Shown here: in pieces, positions 3,897-8,343 of the stretch
Layout: every line of letters begins with the position of its first letter
Position numbering within the stretch: position 1 is the stretch's first letter
From: a virus
DNA: 41,135 bases
Reading direction: 5' to 3' (one strand)
Virus genome (UHGV): UHGV-0094207
Position numbers and translations under genes: made by a program
Notes under the pieces: generated by a model
Databases searched by the model: none
Told to the model about the DNA's origin: nothing
What the model saw: only the letters and a program-made list of their open reading frames with translations

Positions 3897-4468
3897 TGGG
3901 CTGCCTCCTGGCGAAGAATTTCAGCAAAGACTTTCAACTCGTAGATATCCCTGCGAATAGAATCCCGAACTGCACCAATAGCAAAAGTGTCAGGGTGCAT
4001 GCCGTCTAATTGCTGCTGTTTAACCTCAATCATGCGCTCCACACCCTGAGCCTGCACTTCAGCCTGGAAAGCTTGATATGCTGGAATCTGCAACACAGCC
4101 AGTGAGCGAATCATCTTCTGAACTTCTGACGGGCACTGTTCGTAATGGTCGTCGGTGATGAATACCGCCTCGTTGTGAATTTTGTCCACAGCGCTTAATT
4201 CCGCCGCCAGCTTCCTACACTTGCTCTCGGCGTTAGCGAGCTGTACTGCCATGTCTGTGAGCTTCAGTTCAAGATTGTGAATAGTCGCGTCTGCTGCCCG
4301 GAACTCGCGCTGGGATTCCGTTAAATTTGAGCATGCGTTCTGAATTGAGTAGGCAAAAATGGCAGTATCACGATCATCTGATTCTTCAGCTTTAACCTGC
4401 AACTGAACCGCCAGGCTGAAGAGATCAGCAATTTGATTTTCTGTCATACGGTTATTGATAGTTTGCAT
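3893..4468 (-). CDS. Hypothetical coiled-coil protein
   Basis: Start chosen at 'MQTINN' (AGGT about 9 nt upstream); the longest ORF-track form (to 4549) overlaps the ParB-like gene by about 100 nt. Confidence 0.4.
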   Translation of the reverse strand: MQTINNRMTENQIADLFSLAVQLQVKAEESDDRDTAIFAYSIQNACSNLTESQREFRAADATIHNLELKLTDMAVQLANAESKCRKLAAELSAVDKIHNEAVFITDDHYEQCPSEVQKMIRSLAVLQIPAYQAFQAEVQAQGVERMIEVKQQQLDGMHPDTFAIGAVRDSIRRDIYELKVFAEILRQEAAQ

Positions 4469-5492
4469 TGGTATGTACCTGCTGAAGTTTGTGTTGTTTA
4501 ACGAAGTGGGCCACTGCTTTTGACTGGCTGGCGATAATTTTTCTGTCACCTAGGTCGAGCGTGACGTTCTTACCGCGATAAATTATTGCCGAGCCGATTT
4601 CCTTACCGTCCAGCTTCACATACAGCAATTTCCCGATAATCTCTGTCGTAGGGATTGGCTGTGAAAGGCGATAGGTTTCGCGAGCTTCAGCAATGGTTTT
4701 ATGTTCGTCGATTATCGACAGGGCTTCAGCCAGTGCAGTGCCTTGCAAAGTGAACACGCCTTCATCGCTGATTGTCGCCATGGCCATCAGTTCGACGAAG
4801 CGGCGAGCACTTTTAATGTTGAGTTCAGGAGCGATAGAACTGCGCGTAACCTTTGTTTTCCCCTGGGCGGCGGCTACGGCTTTATCGTGCTGGAGAACTT
4901 CACCAGCCTGTTCACCAAACTCGCGAACGCGGTCAACAGCAACATCAACAGACACGGCACCAGATTTAACTTCCTGCTGAACGTCATAATTAGCGGTACT
5001 CAGAGTGAGCAACTTCTCAACGGTCGCTACAGACTTATTGACCAGCTTTGCAATCTCGCTGGTGGTCTGATTGAAAGCGTTATGAAGCTCCTGAATAACA
5101 GCAGCCTGTTCAATATCGGAAAGGGGGAGTTGGTTATTACTGGTCATGATGCGAGCCAGACGCTGCACATCGTTACCGTTAAACGGCATGATATGAATAC
5201 GGTCTACTGGCTTACCAGCTTCAGCACAACGCGCATAGCAACGGCGACGGCGGTGGCCTTCAACAACCCACACCCCACCTTCATCACGTGCGATAACCTC
5301 CAGCGGAGGAACGGTGCCACCGTTCATCAGATAGTTAAACAGGTCATCATCTGCCTGGCGAGTGCGTTCGTCGTCTTCACGCTTGTTGAAACCTTCACGC
5401 ACGTAGATATGTTCAAGGCTGATAAACATCCCGGTATCGGTGCGCTTGATGGTCCCATCACGTGACATTTGTTTGAATGAGTTAGCGGCCAT
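4452..5492 (-). CDS. ParB N-terminal-domain (ParB/Srx-like nuclease) protein with HTH
   Basis: 346 aa. 'VVEGHRRRR' arginine-rich ParB-type motif followed by an HTH-like segment 'LPLSDIEQAAVIQELHNAFNQTTSEIAKLVNKSVATVEKLL'; no ParA partner is present. Confidence 0.6.
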   Translation of the reverse strand: MAANSFKQMSRDGTIKRTDTGMFISLEHIYVREGFNKREDDERTRQADDDLFNYLMNGGTVPPLEVIARDEGGVWVVEGHRRRRCYARCAEAGKPVDRIHIMPFNGNDVQRLARIMTSNNQLPLSDIEQAAVIQELHNAFNQTTSEIAKLVNKSVATVEKLLTLSTANYDVQQEVKSGAVSVDVAVDRVREFGEQAGEVLQHDKAVAAAQGKTKVTRSSIAPELNIKSARRFVELMAMATISDEGVFTLQGTALAEALSIIDEHKTIAEARETYRLSQPIPTTEIIGKLLYVKLDGKEIGSAIIYRGKNVTLDLGDRKIIASQSKAVAHFVKQHKLQQVHTNANYQ

Positions 5493-6007
5493 TACGCAGT
5501 ACCTTCACGAAGTTGGTTAGCGAATAACAGAGCCTGATTACCAGCGTAAACAATGCTTTCTTCTTGCTCTTCTTTCCCTATGGTAATAGTGACATTTGCG
5601 TACTTTTCCACGCCAGTGGCTTGGATATCGCGAATAACTTGATCAGTTACTGGAGTTAACTCGCGTAATTCTCTCTGCGCCTCCAACATGTGCATATTGG
5701 TCGGCGATTTGGTATGACGTTCAACGATGCGGTCGCACTCTTTGGCCCAACAATTAACATCGTCGCGTAAAACGGTGTTCTCTATGGCCAGTGCTTTACG
5801 CTGTTCCATTGACTCGCACAGCGCGACACCCTGAACATCGTAGCGGTTCGCCAGTTCATTCATCAGCCACTGGGAAGCAGGTGGCAGGAGAGGGGCAGCT
5901 TTACGGGCTGCATCGATCAGTTGTTCTCTGGTCATACGTGGTTGTAACTCAGTGACGTTCTGTGTGGTCGTCATGGTTAGTTTCTCCGTGTTATATGCGC
6001 CCTGCAC
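5492..6007 (-). CDS. Hypothetical early protein
   Basis: 171-aa ORF in the operon; start uncertain (internal 'MTTTQN' is an alternative). Confidence 0.4.
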   Translation of the reverse strand: MQGAYNTEKLTMTTTQNVTELQPRMTREQLIDAARKAAPLLPPASQWLMNELANRYDVQGVALCESMEQRKALAIENTVLRDDVNCWAKECDRIVERHTKSPTNMHMLEAQRELRELTPVTDQVIRDIQATGVEKYANVTITIGKEEQEESIVYAGNQALLFANQLREGTA

Positions 6008-6033
6008 GGCGCTGAATTCTTTGGCCTTGATAC

Positions 6034-6291
6034 TTAAAAGAGGCCACCTTGGTCTTTAGGTTGGACACGTTTTCTTTTTGTGACTTCGGACTTTGAAACC
6101 TGCTTATCTGCCCAGGCTTTTGCGTGCCTCATCACATCGTCAAAAATCGCGCCTTTTTTACTGGCTTGTGACATACGCTTATATAAATCAAGTGCTTGCC
6201 ATGCCCCCCCCCCCTGAGCCACTGAAGAGGAAAAACCTTGTTTAATAAGGATTTCCCTTACGTTCTTCTCAATAAATTCGAGGTGGTTCAT
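6034..6291 (-). CDS. Hypothetical protein; first gene of the early-left operon; contains a G11 homopolymer
   Basis: Start placed at 'MNHLEF' because a GGAGG sits 5 nt upstream; the ORF track extends it to 6345. A run of 11 C on the plus strand (6204-6214) encodes 'QGGGA'. Confidence 0.45.
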   Translation of the reverse strand: MNHLEFIEKNVREILIKQGFSSSVAQGGGAWQALDLYKRMSQASKKGAIFDDVMRHAKAWADKQVSKSEVTKRKRVQPKDQGGLF

Positions 6292-6521
6292 TAGTCCTCC
6301 AGTGGAAAAATCCGCTGAATTTTGGTTGCACGAATCCCTCGCCAAAAGGCGAATAAAAGTTTGGGTTTCGTTTCAGTAAATGCCCCATGAAGAGGCACTT
6401 AGTGAAACGGGCGACTGCAATCGCCGGTTAGTTTCTCCACTCAATTGAAAGCGCGTTCCGCTGGTTTTGGATTTAACGAACTGGCACTTAATGACAAGTT
6501 ACAGAACGCGCTTTCAGTTGA

Positions 6522-6569
6522 GTAAAAAGGGCGGTACCAGGGACTTCAAAGGTTGGTACTGGTACCGCC
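6522..6569 (-). terminator. Candidate rho-independent terminator downstream of the tRNA
   Basis: Inverted repeat ggcggtaccag / ctggtaccgcc (11-bp stem, 18-nt loop) followed on the minus strand by CUUUUUAC. Confidence 0.5.
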
Positions 6570-6621
6570 AAGACTCCACACAGCTTTCTTACTTCCTGGT
6601 ACCACGCTGGCTACGTGATTC

Positions 6622-6699
<78 letters not shown>

Positions 6700-7540
6700 A
6701 CTGGAAGCGCACTCCACCTGTTTCACACCTGTCACCCATAACTGGTAAGTAAAGGAGTGCGCTTTCATGTTGTGTTCGCGGGGTCTACTTCCCTCCTGTC
6801 ACGGTTCTTTCCCCGCGTCATCATGTGTTCATTCGGTACATGAAACCCATTTGTCAGGATTCCACCGGCTCCCATCAGTTTTTAAAGACACTCAGATATC
6901 GTCTGGTCTGTGCCGTCTCTTCCGGCTGTCATCCGGGTTGAACTCGCCCTGAACGAGATTGAAGGGTTATAGCCCCTTACGGCATTCACGCCCTCTCACG
7001 TGTGTCGCGTATGCCACGCCAGCGCTAACGAGTTTTAACGACCTTTGCCGTTTGCATCATCTTGTCGCCGCTGTTATCGGTGCGGAACCGCCACTGTCCA
7101 GGACATTTAAAAGGACCGTCTCCAAGTGGTAACTCTTCCAGTCCCGGTAAGCACTCTGCGAAATACTTACCGTGACCGGCTGTTATTCCCTGAAAAAGGC
7201 TGGCGGTTACCGGACAAACGGGAAAACATCGGGCCGCCAGAACAGGGAGTTACTTGTTATTGCTTTGGCCTGCTTTTAACCACATCAGGCGCGGTGGTAG
7301 GTATCTTCGGGCGGGGTGCTAAGGGGGTGATTAGCCCTTGCCCTTAACACTCCTGCTGGTTTTGGTATTCCTGGCTTGGGTATCGCCACCAGCTATAGGA
7401 ATTTGACTACGAGTTGGGGTTAATCAGACCGCGTCTCTGTTACCCCTCCCGAAGACACCTGTCAGCGAATCATCCGGTTATTCATACGCCACCGGCGGCT
7501 ACTTCGTGGGCGTCCTGCCTGTTCGCTGCTGATGAATGGA

Positions 7541-7569
7541 ATCTAACTTAACTTAGCTTTTAGATCAAG
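7541..7569 (-). promoter_or_regulatory. Candidate pL promoter downstream of cI
   Basis: On the minus strand: TTGATC, 17-nt spacer, TAGATT; the spacer contains a CTTAG motif like those in the oR region. Confidence 0.35.
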
Positions 7570-7622
7570 AAAAAACACCAAACTATTCTTAGCTTGATGT
7601 TAAGAGGAAGGTTAGAGGTAGG

Positions 7623-8249
7623 TTAAAGCTCGTACTGAACGCCTTTGACAACTCCAATGATCAGGCAATTACCGTTTATTGAAATGTTTGGATAGCGTGG
7701 ATTTAAGGGAACCAAGAACTTTTGAGGCCCATCGATGACGAGTTTTTTTACAGTAGCCTCGTTTGTCCCATCAAGTCTGGCTACGACTATCTTTCCATTA
7801 AGTGGCTCTGCATCAGGGTCCACTATGACTGTTGCCCCTTCAGGGATTGTCGGAAGACCATTAGGGTTTGTCATCGAATCACCTTTGACCTCCAATGCAA
7901 ATGAGCTATCACCTATCCTGAGTGATGTTTCTACCCACTTATCTACTTCACTGAAAACTTCTGCTGCTTTACATTCTGTAAACTGTCCAGCCTGAACCCA
8001 AGATATCACCGGAATCCTTCGCATCTTGGTTATCAGATTTCCTTCGAATTCAGTGCCATAGAGTATGTAATCAATTGATGTGTTGAAATACTTTGCAAGT
8101 TTCGAAAGTGACTCACCGCCTGGCACATTAATGTCTTTTTCCCAATACCCAACCGCCACATCGCTAACACCACAGAACTTACCCAGTTCTTTCTGCGAAG
8201 TTTTGGTTACGCGCCTGAGAGCTTTGATGCGCTGACCGACAGTTTCCAT
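7623..8249 (-). CDS. cI: CI-like prophage repressor (HTH plus S24 LexA-like peptidase)
   Basis: 208 aa. N-terminal HTH 'QKELGKFCGVSDVAVGYWEK'; Ala-Gly cleavage site in 'WVQAGQF'; catalytic 'KGDSM' and 'VKKL'. Confidence 0.85.
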   Translation of the reverse strand: METVGQRIKALRRVTKTSQKELGKFCGVSDVAVGYWEKDINVPGGESLSKLAKYFNTSIDYILYGTEFEGNLITKMRRIPVISWVQAGQFTECKAAEVFSEVDKWVETSLRIGDSSFALEVKGDSMTNPNGLPTIPEGATVIVDPDAEPLNGKIVVARLDGTNEATVKKLVIDGPQKFLVPLNPRYPNISINGNCLIIGVVKGVQYEL

Positions 8250-8275: not shown

Positions 8276-8343
8276 CTAAGCAATCTTAGTTTTTATTGAC
8301 CAAAGTTAGATTGGTTATTAATATCTAATCAAACTTAGCTAAG
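8276..8343. promoter_or_regulatory. oR/pR region: three CTTAG-type palindromes and a sigma70-like pR
   Basis: Palindromes ctaagcaatcttag (8276-8289), ttagat-N11-atctaa (8306-8328) and cttagctaag (8334-8343). pR: TTGACC (8296-8301), 17-nt spacer, TAATAT (8319-8324), upstream of cro. Confidence 0.5.

What the first reader, a model, noticed from the sequence alone, without database searches (positions are those of the whole stretch)
6204..6214. Homopolymeric C11 (G11 on the coding strand) inside the first early-left gene
A run of 11 C encodes QGGGA in the 85-aa protein at 6034-6291. Homopolymers of this length are rare in enterobacterial coding sequence and are prone to slipped-strand indels, so the gene could be phase-variable; or the run is an assembly artefact.
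Basis: seen in the sequence. Interest (0 to 1): 0.4.

Follow-up and report, generated by a model that had tools for sequence, protein, structure and literature searches.

The report
Length-variable poly-G switch in prophage gene
A run of 11 G inside a small early gene of a lambda-like prophage is real, is kept as an unbroken G run in related phages of many enterobacterial genera, and differs in length between near-identical phages so that the gene is in frame in some and out of frame in others, which is the signature of a mutational on/off switch (a contingency locus) carried by a temperate phage.

Summary
The C11 run at 6204-6214 (G11 on the coding strand) is there, and it is the only G/C run longer than 7 in the window. 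It encodes Q-G-G-G-A in an intact 85-aa ORF (6034-6291, minus strand) with a GGAGG ribosome-binding site.

It is not an assembly artefact of this window, because the same G11 allele occurs in 10 other public contigs.

Across 110 related loci the run ranges from G6 to G11. Thirty-seven loci are out of frame, and 36 of those keep the downstream frame open to the normal stop. Sequences within 2% of the window carry G7, G8, G10 or G11.

The run is held at the nucleotide level: the tract Gly codons are essentially always GGG and the preceding Gln is CAG in 90 of 92 haplotypes. Other Gly columns use all four codons. More distant Serratia and Yersinia phage homologs also carry G8.

My best reading is a slipped-strand on/off switch, a phage contingency locus. 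Switching within a clone is inferred, not shown.

The protein's function is unknown. It has three predicted helices, a disordered basic linker and a conserved C-terminal Q-x-G-L-F. That motif resembles a sliding-clamp-binding motif, and the gene often sits beside replication genes.

It is a new member of a known kind and of moderate interest.

The parts
6204..6214 (-). Homopolymeric tract: G11 on the coding (minus) strand, C11 on the plus strand. It spans the third base of Gln26 (CAG), Gly27-29 (GGG x3) and the first base of Ala30 (GCA). In-frame lengths are 3n+2 (G5, G8, G11).
   Evidence: sequence and run statistics. (length polymorphism G6-G11 in relatives). (synonymous-site conservation of the run).
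6034..6291 (-). 85-aa ORF (ATG 6289-6291, stop 6034-6036), a member of PHROG 4439 (function unknown). Predicted as three helices (residues 3-18, 22-41, 46-71) followed by a disordered basic tail.
   Evidence: ORF. (phrog_4439, E 6.6e-31, full length). (no Pfam match). (AlphaFold2 model, mean pLDDT 64.8). (83 homologous protein clusters).
6296..6300 (-). Shine-Dalgarno sequence GGAGG, with 4 bases between it and the ATG.
   Evidence: Read directly from the sequence.
6037..6051 (-). Last five codons, Q-G-G-L-F. This is a C-terminal short linear motif conserved as Q-x-G-L-F across the family and is a candidate sliding-clamp-binding motif.
   Evidence: Q81, G83 and F85 nearly invariant, L84 invariant; terminal hexamers include DQGGLF, DQAGLF, KQQGLF, NQAGLF. 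(residues 69-80 have pLDDT below 50). (consensus QL[SD]LF, with functional variants QHDLF and QPDLF in phage Mu MuC).
6010..6321 (.). A 303-bp gene cassette bounded by the 9-bp direct repeat CGCTGAATT (6010-6018 and 6313-6321). It holds the RBS, the ORF and about 15 bp after the stop codon. It is precisely absent from otherwise 97-99% identical E. coli prophages.
   Evidence: E. coli relatives lack about 300 bp. (pairwise alignment showing the junctions).
6524..6569 (-). Terminator-like hairpin (GGCGGTACCAG...CTGGTACCGCC followed by CTTTTT), located downstream of the tRNA and upstream of the gene. Expression of the gene from PL would need read-through.
   Evidence: fold of 6292-6625, minimum free energy -131 kcal/mol, z-score -8.2. 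(sequence).
6622..6698 (-). Phage-borne tRNA-Arg (anticodon TCT), on the same strand upstream of the gene.
   Evidence: Rfam tRNA, 68.8 bits. (ARAGORN).
7623..8249 (-). cI-like repressor (HTH_3 plus Peptidase_S24 domains), which defines the immunity region. Operator-like repeats lie at 7541-7595 and 8303-8340.
   Evidence: domains. (repeats D5, D7 and I3).

Best explanation
The G11 run is a genuine, heritable, hypermutable homopolymer that works as a translational on/off switch, that is, an SSR-type contingency locus. The switched gene is a small accessory early gene of lambdoid temperate phages of Enterobacterales. Slipped-strand mispairing during replication of the prophage or the phage adds or removes a G. 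Lengths of 3n+2 (G8, and G11 as in this window) give the full 84- or 85-aa protein. In this lineage, lengths of 3n+1 (G7, G10) give a 51- or 52-aa peptide that shares only the first 28 or 29 residues. Lengths of 3n (G6, G9) terminate a few codons after the tract. This window carries a long ON allele, and by the known length dependence of slippage it should be the least stable of the observed alleles. Shown here: the tract, its length polymorphism across near-identical sequences, the integrity of OFF alleles, and nucleotide-level conservation of the run. Inferred: that switching is fast and reversible within populations, and that mutability itself is what selection maintains. The protein's function is unknown. 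My working guess (probability about 0.3) is that it contacts the host beta sliding clamp through its C-terminal Q-x-G-L-F and acts on replication. That could make its expression advantageous in some infections or lysogens and costly in others.
For: (1) The tract is real and unique in the window. The G11 allele is reproduced on 10 independent contigs.
(2) Lengths in 110 loci were G6 x2, G7 about 19, G8 about 66, G9 x12, G10 x3 and G11 x9. Thirty-seven loci are out of frame, including 14 of 26 in the one-genome-per-species set.
(3) A neighbour-joining tree of the gene without the tract needs at least 34 length changes and at least 25 ON/OFF changes.
(4) Sequences differing from the window at no more than 12 of 600 flanking bases carry G7, G8, G10 or G11. 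L034 differs at 1 of 500 flanking bases (3 of 600) and has G8.
(5) 36 of 37 OFF alleles keep the true downstream frame open to the normal stop, and none has a stop in the N-terminal part. OFF alleles are therefore not decaying pseudogenes.
(6) The tract Gly codons are GGG in essentially all of 92 distinct haplotypes. Gln26 is CAG in 90 of 92, against 48 of 92 for Gln32. Conserved Gly columns elsewhere in the gene use all four codons (G19: GGC 55, GGT 19, GGA 14, GGG 3), and GGG is 21% of Gly codons outside the tract.
(7) The run persists in homologs of only 36-45% identity: Serratia phage BZS1 and Yersinia phage YeP1 have G8. A Proteus/Providencia clade has a G8 that aligns 5 codons upstream and also varies (G9 in L138), and many 82-aa frameshift-derived ORF calls occur in that clade.
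(8) Family members without the run have unrelated residues at these positions (SM, SA, SS, PA, IA), so Gly-Gly is not required by the fold.
(9) Other 5-6 nt homopolymers in the same loci are essentially invariant: T5 24/24, A5 29/29, T6 12/12.
(10) Published context: indel rates rise exponentially with run length in E. coli, and 8-bp G:C runs are outlier hot spots (PMC8510543). Phage contingency loci have been shown for T2/T4 (bioRxiv 10.1101/2025.10.21.683753) and for Campylobacter phage polyG tracts (Sorensen 2021, cited in PMC10877375).
Against: No read-level or single-clone data were available, so within-population switching and its rate are not shown. The OFF allele G7 of this lineage is very widespread (64 blocks) and looks stably inherited, so switching may be slow in mismatch-repair-proficient hosts. 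Part of the plus-or-minus-1 variation in public assemblies could be homopolymer sequencing error. The controls are shorter runs, so they do not fully exclude this. No phenotype or trade-off is known for the protein. Ancestry shared among the sampled sequences inflates the apparent strength of the codon-conservation argument.
Confidence: 0.6

Rival explanations
1. The tract is a neutral mutational hot spot in a dispensable accessory gene. It is real and variable, but the variation has no adaptive role, and OFF alleles are simply tolerated loss-of-function states.
For: OFF alleles are common: 14 of 26 species representatives and all four closest sequenced phage genomes. The G7 OFF allele is widespread and apparently stable. 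E. coli relatives lack the whole cassette, so the gene is dispensable for prophage maintenance.
Against: 36 of 37 OFF alleles are otherwise intact. The run is preserved at synonymous sites over a tree of about 4 substitutions per site, while other Gly codons drift. Interrupted, locked alleles are very rare: L049, L079, L090 and L106. The Proteus/Providencia clade carries a run at a different aligned position.
Confidence: 0.2
2. The tract is a recoding site. RNA polymerase slippage or ribosomal frameshifting on the G run yields full-length protein, or alternative C-termini, from any DNA length, so the DNA length matters little.
For: Many DNA lengths coexist with an intact downstream frame. In the Klebsiella/Raoultella clade the +1 frame after the tract stays open for 73-129 codons. 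From my own knowledge, polymerase slippage on long homopolymers is known for A/T runs.
Against: Programmed sites normally have one fixed out-of-frame arrangement. Here the in-frame G8 is by far the commonest state and length is not fixed. From my own knowledge, efficient slippage in E. coli is documented for A/T runs rather than G/C runs. The alternative-frame peptides look like out-of-frame junk (Cys/Arg-rich), and in this lineage they end after 23 codons.
Confidence: 0.1
3. The run length in this window, and the variation among database sequences, is a sequencing or assembly artefact at a homopolymer.
For: Homopolymers of 7-11 bases are error-prone on several platforms. Some assemblies break exactly at the tract: L056/L141 and L145 from one genome, and L061.
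Against: The identical G11 allele is on 10 contigs from four data sources. The identical G7 allele is in 64 blocks, in prophages with different immunity regions. Lengths differ by 2-4 bases (G7 versus G11) between near-identical flanks. Other homopolymers in the same loci are invariant.
Confidence: 0.07

Closest known systems
Simple-sequence-repeat contingency loci (translational phase variation by polyG/polyC tracts), as in Campylobacter, Neisseria and Haemophilus genes
   Same: A homopolymeric G/C tract lies in the 5' third of an ORF. Strain-to-strain length polymorphism includes frameshifting lengths. OFF alleles are otherwise intact. The repeat is conserved at synonymous sites.
   Different: The host clade is Enterobacterales, where SSR phase variation is uncommon and mismatch repair is normally intact. 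The gene is a phage early gene of unknown function rather than a surface-structure or restriction-modification gene. No switching rate has been measured.
Phage contingency loci: hypermutable polyG tracts in receptor-binding-protein genes of Campylobacter Fletchervirus phages (Sorensen et al. 2021, Cell Rep 35:109214), and SSRs in T2 agt and T4 rIIA (Gomez, Barrick and Waters 2025, bioRxiv 10.1101/2025.10.21.683753)
   Same: A homopolymer inside a phage gene gives a mixed population of ON and OFF genomes. It sits in an accessory or 'hypothetical' gene class, which the 2025 preprint found enriched for SSRs.
   Different: Those cases are virulent phages, with A6-A9 runs in the T-even phages or polyG in structural genes. 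This one is a temperate lambdoid phage, the run is G7-G11 in an early-region accessory gene, and it is conserved across many genera. The evidence here is comparative only.
Beta sliding-clamp-binding motif (QL[SD]LF) proteins, for example phage Mu MuC/Mor (PNAS 2026, PMC12867686)
   Same: The family has a conserved pentapeptide Q-x-G-L-F at the extreme C-terminus, after a disordered basic linker. It is a small phage regulatory or early protein. In many phages the gene lies directly upstream of the replication genes O/P, helicase or primase.
   Different: Only 3 of the 5 consensus positions match (Q, L, F), and position 3 is Gly rather than Ser/Asp. There is no sequence or fold relation to Mor/MuC. 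No binding test was possible.
PHROG 4439
   Same: Full-length HMM match (residues 1-75 to profile positions 1-74 of 74, E 6.6e-31).
   Different: The family has no annotated function and carries no information about the tract.

Membership tests
SSR-type phase-variable (contingency) locus | A hypermutable simple sequence repeat within the ORF or promoter | tested here: met
   G11 run at codons 26-30 of an 85-codon ORF.
SSR-type phase-variable (contingency) locus | Repeat-number polymorphism between closely related genomes, including lengths that shift the frame | tested here: met
   G6-G11 in 110 loci, 37 of them out of frame. G7, G8, G10 and G11 occur within 2% flank divergence of the window.
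SSR-type phase-variable (contingency) locus | OFF alleles are otherwise intact, so reversibility is possible | tested here: met
   36 of 37 OFF loci keep the downstream frame open to the normal stop, and none has a stop upstream of the tract.
SSR-type phase-variable (contingency) locus | The repeat is maintained by selection and is not interrupted by synonymous changes | tested here: met
   Tract Gly codons are essentially all GGG, and Gln26 is CAG in 90 of 92 haplotypes. Other Gly columns use four codons, and Gln32 is CAG in 48 of 92.
SSR-type phase-variable (contingency) locus | High-frequency, reversible switching within a clonal population | not testable with these tools
   This needs read pile-ups or single-colony and single-plaque amplicon sequencing. 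The only hint is that some assemblies break at the tract.
SSR-type phase-variable (contingency) locus | A phenotypic difference or trade-off between ON and OFF states | not testable with these tools
   Protein function is unknown: no Pfam, NCBIfam, PADLOC, PDB or fold match.
Phage contingency locus | The locus lies in a phage genome | tested here: met
   The window is a lambdoid prophage with an integrase at 50-1363, a cI-like repressor at 7623-8249 and rightward ORFs filling the rest of the window (not scanned here). Homologs occur in sequenced Klebsiella, Citrobacter, Serratia, Yersinia and Proteus phages.
Beta-clamp-binding protein (clamp-binding motif QL[SD]LF) | A pentapeptide matching the consensus, in an exposed or terminal disordered region | tested here: inconclusive
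   The C-terminal Q-x-G-L-F is conserved after a linker with pLDDT below 50. It matches Q, L and F, but not position 2 or the S/D at position 3 (consensus taken).
Beta-clamp-binding protein (clamp-binding motif QL[SD]LF) | Physical binding to DnaN that depends on the motif | not testable with these tools
   No complex prediction or assay was available.
Programmed recoding site (transcriptional slippage or ribosomal frameshift) | A fixed, conserved out-of-frame gene arrangement that requires the shift for the main product | tested here: not met
   The commonest allele (G8) and this window's G11 are in frame, and length is not fixed.
PHROG 4439 | A significant full-length match to the family HMM | tested here: met
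   E 6.6e-31, residues 1-75 matched to profile positions 1-74 of 74.

The most novel reading that the evidence does not exclude
Temperate lambdoid phages across Enterobacterales carry an ancient, selectively maintained polyG contingency locus. It stochastically switches a small early protein that binds the host sliding clamp. Each lysogen or burst therefore contains subpopulations that do or do not interfere with host replication, which is a bet-hedging device acting on replication or host takeover rather than on receptors. The offset tract in the Proteus/Providencia clade would then be a second, convergent origin of the switch.
Probability: 0.15. Interest if true: 0.75.

Novelty: new member of a known kind. 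Interest (0 to 1): 0.55.

Why it matters
Homopolymer-driven phase variation is a hallmark of Campylobacter, Neisseria and Haemophilus. It is considered rare in Enterobacteriaceae, and it has only just been described in phages (virulent ones). This tract would extend it to temperate phages of Citrobacter, Enterobacter, Klebsiella, Serratia, Yersinia and Proteus. Comparative evidence suggests that the switch itself has been maintained for a long time.

There is also a practical consequence. Genome annotation pipelines currently split or truncate this gene into 46-, 51-, 52- or 82-aa 'hypothetical proteins', and variant callers may flag the site as an error.

The locus also offers a simple experimental handle. 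ON and OFF alleles occur naturally in near-isogenic prophages, so they could be used to find out what an uncharacterised, widespread early phage protein does.

Tried and rejected
- **Protein family scans.** Pfam, NCBIfam and PADLOC gave nothing for the 85-aa protein. PHROGs gave only an unannotated family.
- **Structure.** The AlphaFold2 model built on a 43-sequence alignment is a low-to-moderate-confidence three-helix model (pLDDT 64.8). A Foldseek search against the PDB gave no match with E below 2. A profile search of PDB sequences gave no credible hit. I did not pursue structure-based function further.
- **Exhaustive profile search of 1.84 billion representatives.** The family is small: 99 clusters. 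Two large proteins matched in several stretches (P0133, P0149), and I treated them as spurious repetitive matches without further test; a Pfam scan showed only EF_assoc_2 (P0133) and a sub-threshold TetR_C hit (P0149).
- **DNA searches.** The near-identity search of the phage collection with the locus found nothing. Protein-mode search was needed.
- **Metagenome pattern scan.** It returned only one locus, a G9 allele, so it gave no distribution.
- **Fusion with the replication gene.** I considered that the open +1 frame after the tract might fuse with the downstream O gene in Klebsiella phages. I rejected this because O is in the +2 frame relative to the true frame (coordinates).
- **Structural roles for the G run.** I considered an internal Shine-Dalgarno, hairpin or G-quadruplex role. 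There is no complementary C run in the window. A single run cannot form an intramolecular quadruplex (from my own knowledge). The ATG that follows the run is not conserved in other clades.
- **Independent origin of the Proteus/Providencia tract.** I considered claiming this. The alignment puts it 5 codons upstream, but the local motif Q-G-G-A recurs in Providencia. Homology with local indels therefore cannot be excluded, and I make no firm claim.
- **The ORF-free region 6700-7570.** An Rfam search at permissive E-values gave nothing.

Full report
**Observation.** Positions 6204-6214 are eleven consecutive C. On the minus strand the run reads CAG GGG GGG GGG GCA, which encodes Gln26, Gly27-29 and Ala30. 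The ORF runs from the ATG at 6289-6291 to a stop at 6034-6036 and encodes 85 aa. A GGAGG Shine-Dalgarno sequence lies 4 bases upstream of the ATG. The run is the only C run longer than 5 and the only G/C run longer than 7 in the 41-kb window. Composition-based models expect about 0.01-0.02 such runs per window.

**Setting.** The window is a lambdoid prophage.
- A tyrosine integrase lies at 50-1363.
- A leftward operon includes a ParB-like gene at 4452-5492 and a PHROG-14171 gene at 5492-6007.
- A cI-like HTH plus S24 repressor lies at 7623-8249.
- Operator-like repeats flank the repressor at 7541-7595 and 8303-8340.
- Rightward ORFs fill the rest of the window; I did not scan them.

Three features lie between the putative PL and the 85-aa gene:
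- about 870 nt without ORFs;
- a tRNA-Arg(TCT) at 6622-6698;
- a strongly structured leader (6292-6625, minimum free energy -131 kcal/mol, z-score -8.2). It contains a terminator-like hairpin at 6524-6569.

The 85-aa gene is therefore the first real protein-coding gene of the early-left transcript. Reaching it from PL would need read-through. The promoter scan found no sigma-70-like site directly upstream.

The gene is a compact 303-bp cassette bounded by the 9-bp direct repeat CGCTGAATT, at 6010-6018 and 6313-6321. E. coli prophages that are 97-99% identical on both sides lack exactly this segment.

**Is the run an artefact?** The exact 85-aa product, and hence G11, is encoded on 10 other contigs. 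These come from an ENA gut metagenome, an NCBI assembly, two Logan assemblies and a JGI metagenome. The G11 length is therefore reproducible.

**Comparative data.** A protein search returned 83 clusters. The full-length forms fall into three series:
- ...VAQGAW... (83 aa, G5);
- ...VAQGGAW... (84 aa, G8, the commonest);
- ...VAQGGGAW... (85 aa, G11).

Many truncated ORF calls are exactly what G7, G10 or G9 would produce:
- 51-52 aa ending in ...QGG(G)HGKHLIYIS...;
- ...QGGGMASD;
- 46-aa C-terminal fragments that start at Met40.

I then fetched DNA. This comprised 26 loci from one genome per species, 80 loci from IMG/VR and loci from exact-protein look-ups. I measured the run between the Ala25 and Ala30 codons.

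| Run length | Loci (of 110) |
|---|---|
| G6 | 2 |
| G7 | about 19 |
| G8 | about 66 |
| G9 | 12 |
| G10 | 3 |
| G11 | 9 |

Thirty-seven loci are out of frame. In the species-representative set, which is not ranked by alignment quality, 14 of 26 are out of frame.

On a neighbour-joining tree of the gene with the tract removed, parsimony needs at least 34 length changes and at least 25 frame changes.

Sequences that differ from the window at no more than 12 of 600 flanking bases carry G7, G8, G10 or G11. L034 differs at 1 of 500 flanking bases (3 of 600) and has G8.

In viral contigs with exactly the window's flanks, the lengths are G7 x4, G8 x2 and G9 x3. The G7 protein of this lineage occurs in 64 blocks of the collection, in prophages with different repressors.

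The four closest sequenced phage genomes are all out of frame:
- Klebsiella phage 5 LV-2017;
- Klebsiella phage ST16-OXA48phi5.1;
- Klebsiella phage Kpn_R1;
- Citrobacter phage Omnitron.

**Signs that this is a maintained switch rather than decay.** Four results point this way.

First, 36 of 37 out-of-frame loci keep the true downstream frame open to the normal stop, and none has a stop upstream of the tract.

Second, the run is preserved at synonymous sites:
- In 92 distinct haplotypes the tract Gly codons are essentially always GGG.
- Gln26 is CAG in 90 of 92, whereas Gln32 splits CAA 42 and CAG 48.
- The conserved Gly19 column uses GGC 55, GGT 19, GGA 14 and GGG 3.
- GGG makes up 21% of Gly codons outside the tract, and 17% in the window's long ORFs.
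- Codons flanking the tract vary freely (TCA, TCG, GCA, CCG; GCT, GCG, GCC; GCA, GCG).

Only four loci have an interrupted run: L049, L079, L090 and L106.

Third, the run persists in distant homologs:
- G8 occurs in Serratia phage BZS1 and Yersinia phage YeP1, at 37-38% identity in the A4 alignment (43-45% over the tblastn local match).
- G6 occurs in phage EKP1.
- A Proteus/Providencia clade has a G8 that aligns five codons upstream. It also varies (G9 in L138), and many 82-aa frameshift-derived ORF calls occur in that clade.

Family members that lack the run have unrelated residues there (SM, SA, SS, PA, IA). The protein therefore does not need Gly-Gly.

Fourth, the tract is exceptional in its surroundings. 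Only 4 other G/C runs of 7 or more occur in 755 kb of fetched loci. Other 5-6 nt homopolymers with conserved flanks are invariant in the same assemblies.

**Mechanism.** The best-supported model is slipped-strand mispairing at the G:C run during replication. This gives heritable changes of one base. Lengths of 3n+2 are ON and the others are OFF.

This is the classical translational phase-variation, or contingency-locus, mechanism. In E. coli, indel rates rise exponentially with run length, and 8-bp G:C runs are outlier hot spots (PMC8510543). The window's G11 should therefore be a comparatively unstable ON allele.

Contingency loci in phages have been demonstrated for A-runs in T2 agt and T4 rIIA (bioRxiv 10.1101/2025.10.21.683753). 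They have also been demonstrated for polyG tracts in Campylobacter phage receptor-binding genes (Sorensen 2021, reference seen).

The following steps are inferred rather than shown:
- the switching rate;
- reversibility within clones;
- that mutability is the selected trait.

The wide, apparently stable distribution of the G7 allele warns that switching may be slow in repair-proficient hosts.

**Protein.** The protein has no Pfam, NCBIfam or PADLOC match. It is a full-length member of the unannotated PHROG 4439. The exhaustive profile search found only 99 clusters.

AlphaFold2 predicts three helices and a disordered tail, with mean pLDDT 64.8. No fold or PDB sequence match is meaningful. The tract encodes the start of predicted helix 2, residues 27-29.

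The extreme C-terminus is conserved as Q-x-G-L-F (DQGGLF, DQAGLF, KQQGLF, NQAGLF, TQPGLF). L84 is invariant and Q81, G83 and F85 are nearly so. It follows a variable, basic linker of low confidence. This resembles the beta-clamp-binding motif QL[SD]LF, whose functional phage Mu variants are QHDLF and QPDLF (PMC12867686).

In Klebsiella, Serratia and Proteus phages and in phage EKP1, the gene sits between the cII or cro region and the replication genes O/P, helicase or primase. This supports a replication-related role by association only. I rate clamp binding at about 0.3. It could not be tested here.

**Rivals.**
- *Neutral hot spot in a dispensable gene (0.2).* This fits the frequency of OFF alleles and the absence of the cassette in E. 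coli prophages. It does not fit the intact OFF alleles or the synonymous-site conservation.
- *Recoding by polymerase or ribosome slippage (0.1).* I cannot exclude it. However, in-frame alleles predominate, length is not fixed, and the alternative-frame peptides look like noise.
- *Sequencing artefact (0.07).* This is contradicted by reproducibility across data sets, by length differences of 2-4 bases between near-identical sequences, and by invariant control runs. Some plus-or-minus-1 calls in public assemblies may still be errors. A few assemblies break exactly at the tract, which could reflect either real heterogeneity or chemistry.

**Verdict.** The locus is a new member of a known kind, an SSR contingency locus. 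It is unusual for sitting in temperate phages of Enterobacterales and for its long-term conservation. Interest is moderate, at 0.55.

Noticed in passing
window 6700-7570 (minus strand): About 870 nt between the repressor and the tRNA have no ORF longer than 73 aa. The stretch is a mosaic of short modules that recur, mostly unannotated, in 1383 of 5426 complete E. coli genomes and 131 phage records (mEp390, mEp460, ST64B and Klebsiella phages). There was no Rfam match even at E up to 5. It could be a PL leader with nut- or put-like elements, or non-coding RNAs.
   Followed up: partly
window 6292-6625 (minus strand): The leader upstream of the 85-aa gene is very strongly structured (minimum free energy -131 kcal/mol, z-score -8.2). 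It has a terminator-like hairpin at 6524-6569 and a long hairpin with 20-nt arms at 6439-6458 and 6504-6523. It is conserved in about 56 related loci and also in E. coli prophages that lack the gene. It could be an antitermination (put-like) or processing element.
   Followed up: partly
window 6622-6698 (minus strand): A phage-borne tRNA-Arg with anticodon TCT (reads AGA) sits inside the early-left leader. Three of the five Arg codons of the 85-aa gene are AGA or AGG.
   Followed up: no
window 6010-6018 and 6313-6321: The 9-bp direct repeat CGCTGAATT bounds the 303-bp gene cassette. Near-identical E. coli prophages have a single copy of the repeat and no cassette. This implies insertion or deletion by recombination at the repeat.
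   Followed up: yes
L008, L009, L011, L012, L017, L019-L023 and other Klebsiella/Raoultella-type loci, downstream of the tract: The +1 reading frame after the polyG stays open for 73-129 codons, beyond the normal stop, in about 45 of 110 loci. In the window's own lineage it closes after 23 codons. This is probably compositional, but it was not tested for coding signal.
   Followed up: partly
L056/L141 and L145 (both from IMGVR_UViG_2874293822), and L061: Contigs begin or end exactly at the polyG tract, so the assemblies broke there. This is compatible with tract heterogeneity within the sample or with polyG sequencing trouble.
   Followed up: no
L119 1501-1758 and L138 10770-11027 (Proteus phage and prophage); Providencia proteins P0195-P0202: In the Proteus/Providencia clade the polyG (G8 or G9) aligns five codons upstream of the tract position in the other clades. 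This is either an independent origin of the run or the result of local indels around a shared Q-G-G-A.
   Followed up: partly
window 7541-7595 and 8303-8340: Related 15-18-nt repeats and a palindrome flank the repressor gene. They are likely the OL and OR operators of this phage's immunity region.
   Followed up: no
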